From a virus (Duplodnaviria; Caudoviricetes): a DNA stretch of 32,188 nt. A model generated the notes under the pieces. The model was not told the origin of the DNA. It did not search any database and saw only the letters and a program-made list of their open reading frames with translations. A program made the translations under genes and the position numbers. Positions 14,815-24,283 of the stretch are shown here, piece after piece. The stretch covers positions 1 to 32,188 of the IMG/VR virus record IMGVR_UViG_3300035162_000133; one strand, given 5' to 3'. Every line of letters starts with the position of its first letter. The stretch's first letter is position 1.

Positions 14815-15308
14815 TATTGTATTGCATCAGTTGTTGCTTGTGGTGCTATACAAGTGTTGTATTCGTTTTCTATAATAACAGGCAGAGTAAATACCCAACC
14901 TGTAGGTGCATTATCAAATCTTTCTGTAAAAGGTTCTATATTTATATCTCCATCTGTAAAGTATTTAGGTAAAGCATCTAAACCTTGATTAGATAATAAA
15001 AGACTTTCCCCATTTTTAAACGTACCTATCAAGTCATTACATATTTGTAAGCAATCAGATAATACTTCTTGTTCATTACTAAGGTCAGGAAATACTAAGT
15101 CCATAATAAAGATTTGAAAGTTTATAGTCATCTGATGAGTTCCTGCTACTGCATTGACAGGTGTTATGTGCATTAATGGAAAATATGAGTTTTTAGCAAG
15201 ATCAACTTCCCATATATCTCCTGTAGTAATTGTCTTAATCATATAGTGTTGCTCTCCTAATTTCTTTAGAGTATCTATAGTATTGTTGTAATCTTTAAAG
15301 TATGTCAT
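14814..15308 (-). CDS. Putative tail terminator protein
   Basis: 164 aa, acidic, with FPLMHI, FQIFIMD and IEPFTERFD..GW pattern; sits among neck/tail genes. Confidence 0.55.
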   Translation of the reverse strand: MTYFKDYNNTIDTLKKLGEQHYMIKTITTGDIWEVDLAKNSYFPLMHITPVNAVAGTHQMTINFQIFIMDLVFPDLSNEQEVLSDCLQICNDLIGTFKNGESLLLSNQGLDALPKYFTDGDINIEPFTERFDNAPTGWVFTLPVIIENEYNTCIAPQATTDAIQ

Positions 15309-15550
15309 TGTTTAACTGATTTTGTTTCGTTTAAATCTGTTTCATAAGTTAGCCAAGTCAAACATTCATACAGGCTAAGATTAGTTATTCTTTCTAAGTT
15401 TATTATCTCTCCATTACACAATCGGTGCATTACACCAAACCATCCCCATTTGTCTGCAAATTGTTCTCCTGCATCCTGTCTAGTATCGCCTTGCTCTGTT
15501 CCATTAAATACAATGGCAAAATTATCGACAGTTCTTTCCCTAAAGTCCAA
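15305..15550 (-). CDS. -1 frame extension of the tail assembly chaperone (gpGT-like C-terminal part)
   Basis: No ATG. The frame begins at the T9 slippery run and its stop overlaps the next ATG (ATGA). Confidence 0.7.
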   Translation of the reverse strand: MDFRERTVDNFAIVFNGTEQGDTRQDAGEQFADKWGWFGVMHRLCNGEIINLERITNLSLYECLTWLTYETDLNETKSVKQ

Positions 15551-16074
15551 AAAAAAACCAGAGAACTATTAACATCTCTTGCCTTCATCTTCTCAAATTT
15601 CTTAGCCCTCATCCGTGAATCACTTATACCATAGGCTTCAATAGAATAATCTTTACCATCTCTCTCTGTTATTGGTCTGTATAATACTGCTATCAGCTTA
15701 GTTAAGTTATCTTCTAAACCATTCTTTAAGTACGTTTCTATATCTGCATACTCTCCTAAAGTTATTTCCTCTAAGTTAGGATGAAAGCCATACTCTACAT
15801 TATCTAACTTTATTATCTTTTTAAGTTTAGTATCTTCTTTTGCTTGTAAGTCTGATATTTTTTTTAATAATATTGCAACATCTCCTATAGCTAATTCATT
15901 TATAAGTTTCTTAGGTATATCAGATAAAACACTAATAGTATCTAGTGCATCTTGTGTTTTAGTTTTCTCTTTCCTACTTATAAGTTTAACCCATTTATCA
16001 AGTGTAACATCATCCCAACTTTTAATTAGATTGTAATTAGTTTTCTTGCCTTCTTTATTAATCTTGACTTGCAT
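15430..16074 (-). CDS. Putative tail assembly chaperone (gpG-like)
   Basis: 214 aa (SWDDVTL, YGFHPNLEEITLGEYADIE, AVLYRP). Contains a T9 slippery site leading into the overlapping -1 ORF. Confidence 0.65.
   Translation of the reverse strand: MQVKINKEGKKTNYNLIKSWDDVTLDKWVKLISRKEKTKTQDALDTISVLSDIPKKLINELAIGDVAILLKKISDLQAKEDTKLKKIIKLDNVEYGFHPNLEEITLGEYADIETYLKNGLEDNLTKLIAVLYRPITERDGKDYSIEAYGISDSRMRAKKFEKMKARDVNSSLVFFWTLGKELSIILPLYLMEQSKAILDRMQENNLQTNGDGLV
15549..15558 (-). other. Programmed -1 ribosomal frameshift site G-TTTTTTTTT
   Basis: CTG GTT TTT TTT TGG. The U UUU UUU heptamer gives ...VFF-LDFRER in the -1 frame, a 256-aa product. Confidence 0.7.
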
Positions 16075-16077
16075 ATT

Positions 16078-16107
16078 ATATAATAGAATTAGTTAATTTT
16101 TAGTTTA
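16078..16107 (-). promoter_or_regulatory. Putative late promoter, 3 nt before ATG 16074
   Basis: TCTATTATAT is exact. The upstream element is TAAA at N16 rather than CAAA at N15. Confidence 0.7.
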
Positions 16108-16113
16108 ATATCG

Positions 16114-16121
16114 TATATTTG
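16114..16121 (+). promoter_or_regulatory. Bacteroidota-type -7 box (TATATTTG) on the plus strand
   Basis: Matches TAnnTTTG and is intergenic. TTAG at 16089-16092, 21 nt upstream, is a possible -33 element. Confidence 0.55.
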
Positions 16122-16123
16122 CT

Positions 16124-16184
16124 ACGTTTTCATAATGTTTTAGTCTTAAAAAGGTGTTAATTCTTCAGAGTTGCACCTTTTTTT
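16124..16184 (+). ncRNA. Candidate small RNA antisense to early-gene start codons
   Basis: Lies between a -7 box and a U-tailed hairpin. Its 5' part GTTTTCATAAT is the reverse complement of ATTATGAAAAC. Confidence 0.5.
16148..16184 (+). terminator. Intrinsic terminator (plus-favoured, possibly bidirectional with terL)
   Basis: AAAAAGGTG-T-TAATTC-TTCA-GAGTTG-CACC-T7. Two G.U pairs form only in the plus-strand RNA. Confidence 0.75.
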
Positions 16185-17391
16185 ATTGTACATAATACTT
16201 ACCTGCATTTGGATTATCTAAATGATATATCACATTATACCTTACACCATCTATAGAATGATTATAATTGTCTACATATAACTTAGAACCCTTATCTGCA
16301 TATACATAATTGTTTAACTCTTTAGCTATGTTAGTAGATTCTGGAGATACTATTAGTTGATAGTCTTGCATACGAGTTATACCACTTTCTATAGTTCCTT
16401 TCTTAACAGGTTTAATGTTTACACCTAAATATCTTAAATCTTCTATTAATCTTGGTTCTGCACTATCTGCAATTATTAGTTTGTTTTGTACCTTTTGTAG
16501 TGTTATTTTAGCTAATTCGTGTGATTTTAAACCATTTCTGTAAATATGCTCTTTTAGATATATCTTCTTATGCTTTTTATCTATAGCTACTTCTGTTAAA
16601 GAATCAGGATCAACAGAAAAACCAAAGTCCATACCACAAGATGTTTGTAAGTTATCAGGATTAAATTCTCCTATTGTCCAATTATCAAATACAACACCCT
16701 CTGCTTTGTCTAACCAACCACCAAGTATCTTATGCAAATACTTTTTAGGATTGTTTCTTTTTAACCTATATATCCTTTCTAAGAAACTATCTGATAGATT
16801 TTGCTTGTTGTCTAAGTAGGTAGAATGTATGTAACACACATCATCTTTAGTACCATTGTAACCTGCTTTAATACCTCTGCTTTCAAAGAACTTCCTATAT
16901 ATCCAATGCTCTTTAGTTGTGGGGTTTAGTATTAATATAATTCTATTCTGTACGTTTTTCTCTCTTATACTTAAATCAATAGTGTCAAATATATTCTCAT
17001 CTACTAATTCTTCAGCTTCATCTAACACCCAACAACTTATTCCTTGTAATGACTTTAGGGATGCAGTCTGATTACCAGAAGATGTTTTAATACCTCTAAA
17101 TAGTATATCACTTTTAGTAGATTGATTAACTACTTCTGCTTTGTTAATGCTAAATATATTTGTAAAACCTAACAGTCCTATCTTTTCTAAAAACTCAGGT
17201 ATAATAGATAAGTGTGCAGATACCATAGTGTATCGTGTAAACAACACCCTAACCCCTTTAGACATAGTTAGTAGTGTTAAGAATACTGTAGCTGCAAATG
17301 ACTTACCTGATCCCCTCCCTCCTGTAATTATATAGTATCTACAATCAGAAGAAAATAGAACACTATACTTTTTATTCAGTTTCGGATTCAA
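16183..17391 (-). CDS. terL: Terminase large subunit (PBSX/SPP1-like)
   Basis: Walker A GGRGSGKS, Walker B WVLDEAEE, ILNP coupling motif, and nuclease motifs GMDFGFSVDP, ADSAEP and NHSIDGVRY. Confidence 0.95.
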   Translation of the reverse strand: MNPKLNKKYSVLFSSDCRYYIITGGRGSGKSFAATVFLTLLTMSKGVRVLFTRYTMVSAHLSIIPEFLEKIGLLGFTNIFSINKAEVVNQSTKSDILFRGIKTSSGNQTASLKSLQGISCWVLDEAEELVDENIFDTIDLSIREKNVQNRIILILNPTTKEHWIYRKFFESRGIKAGYNGTKDDVCYIHSTYLDNKQNLSDSFLERIYRLKRNNPKKYLHKILGGWLDKAEGVVFDNWTIGEFNPDNLQTSCGMDFGFSVDPDSLTEVAIDKKHKKIYLKEHIYRNGLKSHELAKITLQKVQNKLIIADSAEPRLIEDLRYLGVNIKPVKKGTIESGITRMQDYQLIVSPESTNIAKELNNYVYADKGSKLYVDNYNHSIDGVRYNVIYHLDNPNAGKYYVQ

Positions 17392-17672: not shown

Positions 17673-17701
17673 ATATAATAGAAATTAGTTGTATTCATTT
17701 G
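17673..17701 (-). promoter_or_regulatory. Putative late promoter for terS-terL
   Basis: CAAA-N15-TCTATTATAT; the CAAA part lies within the end of the NinB-like gene. Confidence 0.75.
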
Positions 17702-20970: not shown

Positions 20971-21239
20971 ATTAATTTTTGTTCAAACACAGGTGCAGGT
21001 TTAAAGTATAAGTATTTAGCTATAGTTGTTGTTCTCCCAAATCGTGTTTTTATTTTTATATCTGTACTGTGAATATTATATCCATCTTTTTTTAATTTAA
21101 ATATAATATCTGAAAGTCTTGTAGCACCATATTCTTTTATAGCTTCCCAACTTGTTATATGTCCATAATTTTTAAGATGCCATTTAATTGCATCTCTTTG
21201 TGTTTTAATTTGATCTTGTGTTATTATAATTGTTTTCAT
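20961..21239 (-). CDS. Winged-HTH protein
   Basis: HLKNYGHITSWEAIKEYGATRLSDIIFKLKKDGYNI. Confidence 0.7.
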   Translation of the reverse strand: MKTIIITQDQIKTQRDAIKWHLKNYGHITSWEAIKEYGATRLSDIIFKLKKDGYNIHSTDIKIKTRFGRTTTIAKYLYFKPAPVFEQKLIWG

Positions 21240-21601: not shown

Positions 21602-21844
21602 TTAATCTTTTCGTTTTAAATTATATAAAAAATCTACGTTTGTTTTCTTTCTAATAACTTCAGGTATATCTTCTTTTTTAATTCTTTGTTTTACATAATG
21701 TTTTACTTTATGTATTGCAGAAATTCTATGTCCAATTCTGATTAACATTCTACCATCAGCACACTTTTCTTCTTTTTCTTTTAATTCAAAACTCATTACA
21801 TCTAGTAATTCTATAACATTATTTAAAAATCTATCTGTTTTCAT
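21602..21844 (-). CDS. Hypothetical protein
   Basis: 80-aa ORF coupled to both neighbours. Confidence 0.55.
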   Translation of the reverse strand: MKTDRFLNNVIELLDVMSFELKEKEEKCADGRMLIRIGHRISAIHKVKHYVKQRIKKEDIPEVIRKKTNVDFLYNLKRKD

Positions 21845-22047
21845 TTATTATAATTTTTTAATTTATATTTAGTCATATCATTTATTACTTTAAAAGTATT
21901 ATCTCTATAAGTTGGTGTTAAAGATACTAATCTGTTATTAACCTCTTGCATACCACTATATTTAAAGTAATGATCTAATTCTATAAAGTTTTCTTTTTTA
22001 ATTAAAGCTATAACTTTTCTATATTTTAATTCTTCTACTATATTCAT
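21841..22047 (-). CDS. Hypothetical protein
   Basis: ATG 22047 (ATGA overlap with the upstream stop) is preferred over 22071. Confidence 0.5.
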   Translation of the reverse strand: MNIVEELKYRKVIALIKKENFIELDHYFKYSGMQEVNNRLVSLTPTYRDNTFKVINDMTKYKLKNYNK

Positions 22048-22646
22048 AATAATTCTTTTGCTTTCTGCCAAGCATCTATCTGATCATCTAATTTAGATGT
22101 TACTTTGCTTTTAGGTTTATCCCACTTAGCTGCATTTTTTGACCATCTTTCTAATCTTAGTTTAATCTCAAATGTACTCTGCTTTTGAAACCTCATTTTT
22201 TTAACACCCTCTGTCCAATAACTTATAAAGTCATCTTTCATTTCTTTTGGGTAATCAAAATACATAACTTGATTAATAAATTTTTCCTTTATAGATATAT
22301 TATTACTTGTAGTATTAATACTTGTACTATTACCTTTCATCTTTTCGTGTATAGGGGTATCCGTGTTTTTCGTGATACCTATACATCTTTTTACGATTTG
22401 ATTGTTAGAATCCCTTTCTATTTTAATAACTATAAACCCATAATTTTTTAAATCAGACAACCAGGATGATACTGTATTCTTGTTTACATTATATAATTCT
22501 GCAAAGTATTTGTTAGATGCAAAACAAAATCCATACTTATTACTTAAAGCAGTTATTTCTCCATATAATAACTTAGCATTGGGTTTTAAATCTGAATACC
22601 TTACGTTAGCAGGTATTATAGCATAGTAGTTAGGGTTTTCTTTCAT
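22044..22646 (-). CDS. Replication initiator / replisome organizer (N-terminal HTH)
   Basis: YYAIIPANVRY..LKPNAKLLYGEITAL...FCFASNKYFAELY...TVSSWLSDL, low-complexity linker, and C-terminal FISYWTE...FEIKLRL.RW. Confidence 0.75.
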   Translation of the reverse strand: MKENPNYYAIIPANVRYSDLKPNAKLLYGEITALSNKYGFCFASNKYFAELYNVNKNTVSSWLSDLKNYGFIVIKIERDSNNQIVKRCIGITKNTDTPIHEKMKGNSTSINTTSNNISIKEKFINQVMYFDYPKEMKDDFISYWTEGVKKMRFQKQSTFEIKLRLERWSKNAAKWDKPKSKVTSKLDDQIDAWQKAKELL

Positions 22647-23155
22647 ATTGTTATAATCTCTAATGTATAATTGTAATCTCTTAAAACACTTCTTATTAAG
22701 GTTGTGTTATTAGAAAACTGTAAAAAATCAGTATTTATTGTATAACTACTATTACCACACTTAATTTTTAACTTTACTTGTGGTTTTTTAGAAATTACAA
22801 CACCATTAGAAACTAGTAACATTCTTATAGAATCTGAATCTATAAATACATTTTTAGAACTATTAAGGTCAGTATAGCTATTATATACTTTAGTAAATAT
22901 ATTTCTATACTTTGGAAATGATGCAAAGTTGTGCTTATGGTATTTTACATAATGTATTATTGATGTTCTATGTCTATTAATAACATCAGCAATAATTTCT
23001 GGTGGTATCTTTTCTAATCTACCAATAACAGATGCTACCATTCTAGGTATTTGAACACTATGCTTTCTAGTCTTATCACTTAAAGAACCCTCTTGTAACC
23101 CTACTAGATTAGTAGTAAGGCTACAAAGGGATTCAAATTTTTCTTTATCTGTCAT
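22643..23155 (-). CDS. Protein with a DnaA domain-IV-like HTH
   Basis: KTRKHSVQIPRMVA...IADVINRHRTSIIH resembles the DnaA C-terminal R..PRQ.A...IG....RDHTTV.H pattern. Start placed at ATG 23155. Confidence 0.6.
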   Translation of the reverse strand: MTDKEKFESLCSLTTNLVGLQEGSLSDKTRKHSVQIPRMVASVIGRLEKIPPEIIADVINRHRTSIIHYVKYHKHNFASFPKYRNIFTKVYNSYTDLNSSKNVFIDSDSIRMLLVSNGVVISKKPQVKLKIKCGNSSYTINTDFLQFSNNTTLIRSVLRDYNYTLEIITI

Positions 23156-23156
23156 C

Positions 23157-23669
23157 TTAAAATGGTAAATCATCAGGAGTAGAACCTTTAAACTTAGCAT
23201 CAAATGCAGAAGCATATTGATTAGGATCAGTTATTTGATCTATTTTGTTTTTTAATCTACTATCAAAATTATCTAATGTTTTATTAGTTTCCATTACCCA
23301 ATTATAAAACTTATCAGCATTGTCTAAAACCTCATCAGAACTACAATTACTATTGTATTCTACTGCAGCTTTTAAACTTGATTGCCTAACTATTAGCTTT
23401 TGTCTATCTGGATTATCATTTGAAGAATTATTAAATGATTTATTAAAAGATTCAGGCTTTATATAAACAGGTTTTACTTTAGGAAACTTACCATCTGTGT
23501 ATTCATATTCTGCATTAGTTCCTATTACAAATTTATTTTGATCTTGATTTTTAGATGAGTATTCTCCCACATCTCCATTTTCAAAACCAATTTCAAATTT
23601 ATACATCATTCCATATTTACCTTCCCAAGTACCATTTGATTGTACACTTGTTACTTTACTATTTTTCAT
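23157..23669 (-). CDS. Putative single-stranded DNA-binding protein
   Basis: Beta-rich N-terminal domain and the SSB-type C-terminal tail DDLPF. Confidence 0.65.
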   Translation of the reverse strand: MKNSKVTSVQSNGTWEGKYGMMYKFEIGFENGDVGEYSSKNQDQNKFVIGTNAEYEYTDGKFPKVKPVYIKPESFNKSFNNSSNDNPDRQKLIVRQSSLKAAVEYNSNCSSDEVLDNADKFYNWVMETNKTLDNFDSRLKNKIDQITDPNQYASAFDAKFKGSTPDDLPF

Positions 23670-23675
23670 AATTAT

Positions 23676-24035
23676 TTAATTTATTATTATTAATTTTCTA
23701 TTATTATCTTCATACATCTTTAACAAACCTTTTGTTAAATTGTATGAGTATATTCCTGTTATATTAGGAAAAGTTTTATCCATACATCTTTGTAGTTCTG
23801 TACCTACTACTACAATCCCTTCGTAAGCATCTCTCTCATCTGTTGTTTGTTTTCTTAAAATATTATCAGTTTTAGTAAAACTCTCTGTACCTTTTACATA
23901 ATAAAGTTTTGCTTCAACTATTCTGTCATCACATTTATCATAAATCTTTTGTAATGCTTCTTGATGCTCTTTTTTTATTTCTATTATCCTTTCAGGAGAA
24001 GGTCTTGTAGGTGTGTATAATCTATTTATAGCCAT
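23676..24035 (-). CDS. Hypothetical early protein
   Basis: 119-aa ORF in the early cluster. Confidence 0.55.
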   Translation of the reverse strand: MAINRLYTPTRPSPERIIEIKKEHQEALQKIYDKCDDRIVEAKLYYVKGTESFTKTDNILRKQTTDERDAYEGIVVVGTELQRCMDKTFPNITGIYSYNLTKGLLKMYEDNNRKLIIIN

Positions 24036-24250
24036 TCTACAATAATTTTAGTTCCTAATATTACTATTGCTATTCCTATAAGTGCTAGACCTATTTCTTC
24101 TTTCCAATTAGTTTCTGTTTCTATTTCTAATAATTCTGATTCTAAATAATCATACTTATTTTGATGTTGATAAAATTGTGCTTTTTCTTCAGCATTTAAA
24201 ATATGTTCCTTATTAGTTAATTTGTGTTTTATAATGTATTGTGTTTTCAT
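24026..24250 (-). CDS. First early gene; C-terminally membrane-anchored protein
   Basis: Hydrophobic IGLALIGIAIVILG segment, A-rich leader, downstream of a -7 box. Confidence 0.6.
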   Translation of the reverse strand: MKTQYIIKHKLTNKEHILNAEEKAQFYQHQNKYDYLESELLEIETETNWKEEIGLALIGIAIVILGTKIIVEWL

Positions 24251-24275
24251 AATAATTTTTTAGAATTTATATATG

Positions 24276-24283
24276 CAAATATA
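24276..24283 (-). promoter_or_regulatory. Early promoter -7 box TATATTTG
   Basis: Matches Bacteroidota TAnnTTTG, 25 nt upstream of ATG 24250, in the largest intergenic gap. Confidence 0.7.

What the first reader, a model, noticed from the sequence alone, without database searches (positions are those of the whole stretch)
16078..16184. Candidate anti-start-codon small RNA that could silence early genes as a class
Seen: the 108-bp gap holds the only plus-strand unit I can find. It has a TATATTTG -7 box (16114), then ACGTTTTCATAATGTTTTAGTC, then a hairpin whose G.U pairs and T7 tail favour the plus strand. The unpaired 5' part is complementary to early translation starts. Matches: 11 nt plus a further TTTTAG at the first early gene (24243-24263), 10 nt at the SSB-like gene (23663-23672), 11/12 at the initiator (22641-22652), and 8 nt at 21232, 21837, 22043 and 18609. 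Its promoter is back-to-back with and overlaps a late promoter. Inference: a trans-acting sRNA masks AUGAAA initiation regions, shutting off early and perhaps host mRNAs in a host without Shine-Dalgarno signals. Caveats: short matches are cheap in AT-rich DNA, and the same bases form a minus-strand mini-ORF ATG AAA ACG TAG (16133-16122).
Basis: partly seen in the sequence, partly recalled or inferred. Interest (0 to 1): 0.85.

Follow-up and report, generated by a model that had tools for sequence, protein, structure and literature searches.

The report
Phage sRNA co-evolving with early leaders
A family of uncultured Flavobacteria-type phages carries a tiny backward-facing unit (host-type promoter signal, U-rich arm, terminator hairpin) whose arm mirrors the start region of each phage's own earliest genes and changes with it from lineage to lineage, so it likely makes a ~60-base RNA that damps early-gene translation, though no transcript has been seen.

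Summary
Observation confirmed, interpretation largely supported. The gap between terL and a late gene holds an antisense unit: Bacteroidota -7 box (16114-16121), a U-rich arm and a terminator hairpin with T7 (predicted RNA 16126-16184). It recurs as 135 distinct sequences in related phages. In 70 of 73 units found through proteins the hairpin folds better on the antisense strand, and the unit is cleanly missing from some relatives. The arm varies widely, yet pairs better with its own phage's first early leader than with other phages' leaders (-10.9 vs -8.0 kcal/mol, 17 clusters, z -5.4; 15 of 16 clusters against nearest relatives). Other proximal early starts show the effect (z -3.2); distal and late starts do not. 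Corrections: TTTTCAT is not a fixed seed (19 of 73), and many arms cover the A-rich leader, not the AUG. Host targeting is untested. There is no RNA evidence, and the G.U test cannot separate RNA pairing from a shared DNA site. It works like FopS/GibS and P1 c4/P4 CI but matches no Rfam family. The scan noted similar anti-early-leader RNAs in other Bacteroidota phages before (e1-5348569, e1-5990149, e1-5845808).

The parts
16114..16121 (+). Host sigma-ABfr -7 box TATATTTG (TAnnTTTG) driving the antisense unit
   Evidence: Among 73 distinct protein-anchored units the box is TATATTTG 38, TATGTTTG 17, TACATTTG 10, TATCTTTG 3, others 5 (the box was part of the detection pattern). Consensus from PMC6847099.
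16088..16097 (+). -33 region of the sRNA promoter, inside the spacer of the late promoter. TTG in most relatives, degenerate in this window.
   Evidence: TTG lies 17-20 nt before the box in 56 of 73 units. TTG in the late-promoter spacer: 56 of 68 with the unit vs 12 of 66 at other or unit-less late promoters.
16126..16152 (+). Predicted 5' single-stranded, U-rich pairing arm. +1 is inferred at G16126, 4 nt after the box.
   Evidence: Unpaired in folds. G at this position in 43 of 73 units; median arm 28 nt, 53% U. Cognate pairing.
16153..16184 (+). Intrinsic-terminator hairpin with G.U pairs and a T7 tail
   Evidence: -13.7 vs -7.9 kcal/mol plus vs minus. 12 consensus pairs, 3 with double-sided changes and many G.U/G-C swaps in 25 relatives. 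Plus strand folds better in 70 of 73.
16079..16107 (-). Late-type promoter (TAAACTAAA ... TTCTATTATA) of the 214-aa gene; it overlaps the sRNA promoter back to back and is kept when the sRNA unit is absent
   Evidence: The motif recurs before late genes at 17683, 6720, 5650 and 3228 and is retained in the short unit-less gaps. Its assignment as a promoter is inferred.
16122..16133 (-). Mini-ORF M-K-T-stop; a by-product of the antisense seed, not conserved
   Evidence: Only 24 of 73 units have an ATG there, and these give 20 different peptides of 3-40 aa.
24243..24263 (-). Main predicted target: leader and start codon of the first early gene (24026-24250, 74 aa, no Pfam or PHROG family)
   Evidence: -14.8 kcal/mol, rank 3 of 41 starts; z -4.8 vs shuffles.
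24276..24283 (-). Early host-type promoter box TATATTTG in front of the first early gene
   Evidence: an equivalent box and leader were used in 43 unit-bearing genomes.
22636..22676 (-). Predicted target: start region of the replication-initiator gene (22044-22646)
   Evidence: Best-scoring start in the window, -16.9. Family-level cognate effect only z -1.6. PHROG initiator hits.
23657..23699 (-).
   Evidence: 10-nt match; -12.5.
16183..17391 (-). Terminase large subunit gene, convergent on the unit
   Evidence: PHROG and Pfam hits. A different gene that does not match terL lies here in many relatives that keep the unit.
15430..16074 (-). 214-aa late gene of unknown function, divergent from the unit; its upstream gap is the constant home of the unit
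   Evidence: only phrog_32199.

Best explanation
The gap holds a conserved antisense promoter-arm-terminator unit that likely yields a ~59-nt trans-acting small RNA, made by host RNA polymerase, whose U-rich 5' arm is predicted to pair with the A-rich translation-initiation region of the phage's first early gene and a few neighbouring early genes and so would likely block their translation. Shown: the anatomy, its conservation and polarity, its modular loss, and the lineage-by-lineage match between arm and own early leaders. Inferred: transcription; pairing in vivo; repression by masking the upstream adenines and/or AUG that Bacteroidota ribosomes use in place of Shine-Dalgarno signals; and a polar effect on the early operon. 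On timing, I infer that RNA and early mRNA both come from host-type promoters from the moment of entry. The RNA would then build up with genome copy number and turn early and replication genes into a self-limiting pulse. It would later be turned down by the overlapping divergent late promoter and by the convergent terS-terL transcript, whose read-through would be its perfect complement.
For: (1) 135 distinct units in 216 of 266 loci scanned (part of the set came from a pattern scan that required the box). (2) Polarity 70 of 73, stem covariation and -33 TTG enrichment. (3) The unit survives replacement of the upstream terminase gene and is cleanly absent in 13 of 74 distinct gaps, so it is a module and not antisense to terL. 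(4) Cognate vs non-cognate first leader: -11.2 vs -8.3 kcal/mol and longest complementary run 9.1 vs 7.3 nt over 40 pairs, p<5e-5; it holds for 13 and 17 clusters. (5) It is specific: of 43 gene families tested only one other reached p<0.001 (an early gene, z -3.8); structural genes gave none; 37 fake sRNAs made from other genes' leaders reached at best z -2.3. (6) Own leader beats the leaders of the three nearest other-cluster phages in 15 of 16 clusters. (7) The first leader ranks in the top 5 of about 42 starts in 30 of 43 genomes, with a gradient first -11.3, proximal early -8.3, distal -7.2, late -6.4. (8) Real arms beat shuffles on first leaders (36 of 37) and proximal early starts (34 of 36) but not late starts (18 of 37). 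(9) The same anatomy and mechanism are proven for host FopS/GibS (PMC11697453, PMC7366714).
Against: No transcript evidence. Mismatches in cognate duplexes are barely biased to G.U (19 G.U vs 14 A.C of 137), and the mirrored duplex scores as well (z -5.1 vs -5.4), so RNA-level pairing is not separated from a shared DNA-level site. In 13 of 43 genomes the first leader ranks below 5th, seven of them 13th-25th. Energies are modest (about -11 kcal/mol, duplex only, no accessibility term). About 1% of arbitrary windows pair as well, and the window's longest perfect match is in a coding region. Some relatives lack the unit altogether, so it is dispensable. The timing model rests on promoter motifs only.
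Confidence: 0.68

Rival explanations
1. Immunity or dormancy use of the same pairing: the RNA is the phage's repressor. It holds early genes down in a carrier or pseudolysogenic state and excludes superinfecting kin with the same leader, and the varied arms are immunity groups. This shares the base-pairing step with the best explanation and differs in purpose.
For: Fast co-divergence of arm and leader across at least 17 clusters. No repressor or integrase hit among 37 window proteins scanned against PHROGs. P1 c4 and P4 CI work this way (PMC5320573, PMC4825925).
Against: No sign of a temperate or plasmid lifestyle was found. The first early gene is often swapped, which by itself would force co-divergence. 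Non-cognate pairing is still about -8 kcal/mol.
Confidence: 0.25
2. DNA-level shared site: arm and early leader carry the same protein-binding sequence (for example for a phage HTH protein) in opposite orientation, and the short transcript is incidental.
For: The G.U test is inconclusive and the mirror duplex scores equally. The window encodes several HTH proteins.
Against: The shared sequence is the non-palindromic translation-initiation region, often including ATG and the first codons. It always lies in the transcribed, unpaired part and in the complementary orientation. It does not explain the dedicated, strand-specific terminator.
Confidence: 0.09
3. Only a transcriptional insulator: a two-way terminator behind terL plus a host promoter that occludes the late promoter until the phage sigma-like factor appears. 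The RNA sequence does not matter.
For: Invariant back-to-back overlap with the late promoter. An A-run of 4 or more before the stem in 17 of 73 units would allow minus-strand termination.
Against: It gives no reason for the cognate match to early leaders 8-11 kb away. Most units lack a minus-strand U tail. Other late promoters have no such partner.
Confidence: 0.07
4. The main targets are host mRNAs with A-rich leaders and AUGAAA starts; matches to phage leaders are secondary.
For: Adenines at -3, -6, -12 and -13 are general initiation signals in Flavobacterium (PMC6847099), so a U-rich arm could pair widely.
Against: The arm tracks the phage's own leader even against nearest relatives. No host genome could be tested.
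Confidence: 0.07
5. Pairing activates or stabilises the early mRNA 5' end instead of repressing it.
For: Some arms pair close to the predicted transcript start rather than over AUG.
Against: Pairing centres on -17 to +7, over the initiation signals. The Bacteroidota precedents with this geometry repress.
Confidence: 0.05
6. A minus-strand mini-ORF (M-K-T) acting as a leader peptide for the late gene.
For: ATG AAA ACG TAG with an A-rich upstream region is present in the window.
Against: ATG is present in only 24 of 73 units, with 20 different peptides. It lies upstream of the late promoter.
Confidence: 0.02

Closest known systems
FopS and GibS small RNAs of Bacteroides thetaiotaomicron (PMC11697453, PMC7366714; passages read)
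   Same: [quoted passage not shown] GibS: 5' seed over translation-initiation regions of SD-less mRNAs.
   Different: Those are chromosomal, conserved in seed, multicopy (FopS) and aimed at host glycan genes. This one is phage-encoded and single copy, with a hypervariable arm that follows the phage's own early leaders. No Rfam match.
c4 antisense RNA of phages P1/P7 (described second-hand in PMC5320573, passages)
   Same: Phage-encoded, trans-acting, short pairing that occludes ribosome-binding regions of the phage's own mRNA; specificity varies between related phages.
   Different: c4 is a three-stem RNA cut from a precursor by RNase P and pairs through loops a' and b'. This unit has its own promoter and terminator, a linear arm, and sits in phages with no detected repressor or antirepressor system.
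CI RNA of satellite phage P4 (one passage in PMC4825925)
   Same: A small phage RNA that pairs with the leader of the operon holding the replication genes.
   Different: CI is processed from the transcript it controls and causes premature termination. This RNA is encoded 8-11 kb away on the other strand and is predicted to mask initiation regions.
Lambda OOP and aQ, P22 sar (review PMC12197685, parts 1-3 of 6 read)
   Same: Short phage RNAs that repress a phage gene by antisense pairing.
   Different: The review calls these antisense RNAs against one gene each (cis-encoded and fully complementary, recalled). This one is trans-encoded, imperfect and multi-target.
Similar units noted by this scan in other Bacteroidota phages (e1-5348569, e1-5990149, e1-5845808, e1-8120630, e1-5947078; unchecked AI notes)
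   Same: A promoter-to-terminator RNA mirroring the phage's own early leaders.
   Different: Other genomes and positions; no sequence look-alike of this unit in the index. Homology was not tested.

Membership tests
Any Rfam 15 family (incl. C4; FopS if present in the release) | Covariance-model score at the family threshold | tested here: not met
   No match to E<=1 in the window. In 20 unit-region loci only 5 chance-level hits, far below gathering scores and none C4, FopS or GibS. I did not check that FopS is in this release.
FopS/GibS-type Bacteroidota sRNA (works-like) | sigma-ABfr promoter TAnnTTTG directly upstream | tested here: met
FopS/GibS-type Bacteroidota sRNA (works-like) | Single-stranded 5' seed plus intrinsic terminator | tested here: met
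   Predicted structure.
FopS/GibS-type Bacteroidota sRNA (works-like) | Pairing over the initiation region of the first gene of an operon | tested here: met
   Computed only.
FopS/GibS family (membership) | Conserved R1 seed sequence | tested here: inconclusive
   The R1 sequence was not in the passages read. The arm here is not conserved across clades, which argues against membership.
FopS/GibS-type Bacteroidota sRNA (works-like) | Transcript exists, represses translation, binds RbpB | not testable with these tools
   No RNA holder listed; needs bench work.
P1/P7 c4 antisense RNA | Three stem-loops with a'/b' loops; RNase P processing from a precursor | tested here: not met
   A single hairpin after a linear arm, own promoter and terminator; no Rfam C4 hit.
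P1/P7 c4 and P4 CI (works-like) | Confers immunity or lysogeny | not testable with these tools
   No integrase or repressor hit among 37 proteins; lifestyle unknown.
Cis-encoded phage antisense RNA (OOP, sar, aQ) | Encoded opposite its target, fully complementary | tested here: not met
   It lies in an intergenic gap, persists when the terminase gene is replaced, and its predicted targets are 6-11 kb away.

The most novel reading that the evidence does not exclude
These phages use a 60-nt RNA as their repressor, with no CI-type protein. It reads the A-rich initiation code of Bacteroidota, silences the early regulon of its own genome and of superinfecting kin, and diversifies with the early leader into many immunity groups. 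It would be one member of a widespread class of anti-leader RNAs that run the early switch in Bacteroidota phages, including the cultured Nonlabens phages P12024S/L.
Probability: 0.25. Interest if true: 0.9.

Novelty: new variant of a known kind. Interest (0 to 1): 0.76.

Why it matters
How phages that show no repressor turn their early genes down is poorly known for Bacteroidota hosts, which lack Shine-Dalgarno signals. I found no described sRNA of a Flavobacteria phage in the searches run; these cover open-access full text only, and I read no supplements, where candidate-RNA tables could list it. Here a simple, testable RNA switch comes with more than a hundred natural variants in which arm and target change together. 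That gives a ready set of specific repressor-target pairs for studying SD-free initiation, for testing RNA-based superinfection control and for building gene-silencing tools for Bacteroidota. A look-alike unit in two cultured phages offers an experimental handle.

Tried and rejected
Expression: no RNA holder listed among 6 runs; this is no evidence either way. Rfam: nothing. blastn of the unit against GenBank phages: no match. Host: the one hit in species genomes (L386) is a 36-kb contig in a Pseudooceanicola MAG with the same length and range as viral contig L042; I take it as a binned phage contig and not as a host, since the promoter motifs are Bacteroidota-type. An attempt to reach a Bacteroidota control genome returned no handle, so host targeting is untested. 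G.U versus A.C asymmetry and the mirror-duplex test did not discriminate; that script stopped before a grouping by marker identity, which I replaced by the tree test. Rejected: fixed TTTTCAT seed (19 of 73); mini-ORF; cis-antisense to terL; genome-wide leader style as the cause of the cognate signal (fake-sRNA and late-gene controls). A scan for a displaced unit in the 5 unit-less genomes gave no convincing one, but the scan also missed the true unit in about 17 genomes, so it is weak.

Full report
Setting. The window is a whole 32,188-base virus record with all long genes on the minus strand. It encodes portal, protease, terminase, endolysin, a replication initiator, NinB/NinG-like proteins, a methylase and a protein with weak sigma-70 region 4 similarity; none of 37 proteins scanned against PHROGs hit an integrase or repressor family. 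The terminase is 62% identical to that of Nonlabens phages P12024S/L, and TAnnTTTG boxes precede the early operon, so a Flavobacteriia host is inferred. The finding lies in the 108-base gap between terL (16183-17391) and a 214-aa late gene (15430-16074).

Observation. Every feature named is present. The hairpin folds at -13.7 kcal/mol on the plus strand and -7.9 on the minus strand. With the 4-5 nt spacing reported for Flavobacterium promoters (PMC6847099, passages), +1 falls at G16126 and the RNA would be about 59 nt; a G stands at that place in 43 of 73 relatives' units. In the window alone the matches are suggestive but not decisive: the longest perfect match (12 nt, 21694-21705) is inside a gene, and 1% of 2,283 arbitrary sense windows pair as well as the first early leader.

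Conservation. Protein searches with the late gene and terL returned 80 loci each (both capped), and a pattern scan that required the -7 box gave 120 more stretches. A unit was called in 216 of 266 loci, giving 135 distinct sequences. For unbiased counts I used the 73 distinct units from protein-anchored loci. The box varies mainly at its two free positions; the hairpin folds better on the antisense strand in 70 of 73; TTG lies 17-20 nt before the box in 56 of 73. In whole records, TTG is in the late-promoter spacer in 56 of 68 unit-bearing cases and 12 of 66 other late promoters. In 25 close relatives chosen by hand the stem has 12 consensus pairs, 3 with double-sided changes and many G.U/G-C exchanges; distant clades have quite different stems that still fold. 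The unit stays when a different gene that does not match terL lies upstream. In 13 of 74 distinct gaps it is cleanly missing, leaving 33-56 bases with the late promoter only. It is thus a separable module tied to the late promoter, not an antisense overlap of terL.

The arm tracks the phage's own early leader. I fetched 75 related records; with the window, 71 of 76 carry the unit. A first early promoter and leader was used for 43 of the 71. Two were dropped because the candidate was not the first promoter (G038, G047), the other 26 were fragments or gave no candidate, and one choice (G028) was changed by hand after I had seen both candidates and noticed the match. The promoter pattern was widened over without reference to the arm. 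Over 40 distinct pairs, own leader versus other leaders gave -11.2 versus -8.3 kcal/mol and a longest complementary run of 9.1 versus 7.3 nt (p<5e-5, 20,000 permutations); the result held with arms grouped into 13 or 17 clusters. Examples: in G022 the first gene starts ATGGAAA and the arm holds TTTCCAT; G049, G051, G064 and G082 have CATTTTAGT against ACTAAAATG; G037, G053 and G081 have TTTTAGTTA against TAACTAAAA upstream of the AUG; G028 has TTTATTGATT against AATCAATAAA.

Controls. The same cluster test on the start regions of 43 gene families gave z -5.4 for the first early leader, z -3.8 for one further early family, three weak values (z -2.0 to -2.4) and nothing for structural genes. Thirty-seven fake RNAs made from other genes' leaders reached at best z -2.3 against the first leader. 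So a genome-wide leader style does not explain the signal. On a five-protein tree, the own leader beat those of the three nearest other-cluster phages in 15 of 16 clusters. With the first gene left out, proximal early starts still showed the effect (z -3.2, p 0.001), while distal early and late starts did not. Against dinucleotide shuffles, real arms were better on first leaders in 36 of 37, on proximal early starts in 34 of 36 and on late starts in 18 of 37. The first leader ranked first in 12, top three in 24 and top five in 30 of 43 genomes of about 42 starts each; seven genomes ranked it 13th-25th. Gene starts came from my own simple caller, which favours A-rich leaders for all classes alike. 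Energies are duplex-only.

What did not come out. Cognate mismatches were 19 G.U-type and 14 A.C-type of 137, and the mirrored duplex scored z -5.1, so sequence alone does not prove that the match acts between RNAs. Predicted pairing covers about -17 to +7, which includes the adenines at -3, -6, -12 and -13 that promote initiation in Flavobacterium. The minus-strand mini-ORF is not conserved. No RNA run is listed and no host genome was reached.

How it most likely works. Host polymerase transcribes the unit; the free U-rich arm pairs with the leader and/or AUG of the first early gene and of nearby early genes, which in several phages share near-identical leaders (G003, G042, G051); ribosome loading is blocked, as shown for FopS and GibS on SD-less mRNAs. 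All of these steps are inferred (0.68 overall; about 0.9 that the RNA is made). The promoter is host-type, it overlaps a divergent late-type promoter, and a late-type motif lies 1.15-4.5 kb upstream of the late gene in 54 of 62 genomes, at 17683 before the small terminase-like gene here, which would drive a convergent transcript. Late transcription would therefore tend to silence the RNA, which fits a dosage-dependent brake on early and replication genes, or a dormancy and immunity role, better than a late shut-off. This rests on motifs only.

Comparison and novelty. It works like FopS/GibS in anatomy and target geometry and like P1 c4 or P4 CI in being a phage RNA aimed at the phage's own leaders, but it fails the tested membership features of c4 and of cis-antisense RNAs and matches no Rfam family. 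Papers seen: PMC6847099, PMC11697453, PMC7366714, PMC5320573 and PMC4825925 as passages; PMC12197685 parts 1-3 of 6; the rest as search listings; no supplements. Searches for a described sRNA of this kind in Flavobacteria phages found none. The scan's notes list similar units in other Bacteroidota phages, one of which pointed me to FopS/GibS; they are leads, not support. Cultured phages P12024S and P12024L carry a look-alike unit behind the holin gene whose arm has a 12-nt match to a leader just behind a host-type promoter, kept although the downstream gene differs; that leader ranked only 7th of 57 starts in P12024S by energy, so this is a lead.

Verdict. A real, conserved and undescribed phage sRNA-type gene with strong comparative evidence that it is aimed at the phage's own first and proximal early leaders. 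New variant of a known kind; interest 0.76.

Noticed in passing
L148:8241-8315 (+) and L387:328-402 (+), Nonlabens phages P12024S/L: Unannotated promoter-arm-terminator unit behind the holin gene. Its arm matches 12 nt of the leader behind a host-type promoter (L148 about 14360; L387 about 6690). A possible cultured model.
   Followed up: partly
window 15305-15550 (-), overlapping the end of 15430-16074: A second-frame ORF overlaps the 214-aa gene near a T-run around 15524. Not checked here.
   Followed up: no
window 24352-24344 (-): A late-type motif (TTCTATTATA) lies about 70 bases upstream of the early promoter and points into the early operon; it could re-drive early genes late with a longer leader.
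   Followed up: no
G043, G056, G057, gap upstream of the 214-aa homologue: A conserved ~45-base extra segment follows the terminator on the antisense strand; in G043 it is preceded by a second TATATTTG box. Possibly a second small RNA.
   Followed up: no
G041, about 1.77 kb upstream of the 214-aa homologue: A second antisense unit with TATATTTG box and a strong hairpin (-26 kcal/mol) plus T tail.
   Followed up: no
L071 and L075 gap: A much longer (about 130-nt), multi-hairpin version of the unit.
   Followed up: no
L005-L033 and others: A roughly 380-aa gene that does not match this window's terL sits at the same place, and the terL C-terminal 'YYVQ/YFVQ' ending next to the unit is kept: likely a swapped terminase module.
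   Followed up: partly
G003, G042, G051, G065 early regions: Several consecutive early genes carry near-identical leaders, suggesting an array of interchangeable cassettes sharing one address.
   Followed up: partly
L386: A phage contig of this family is filed inside a Pseudooceanicola MAG; probably mis-binned.
   Followed up: partly
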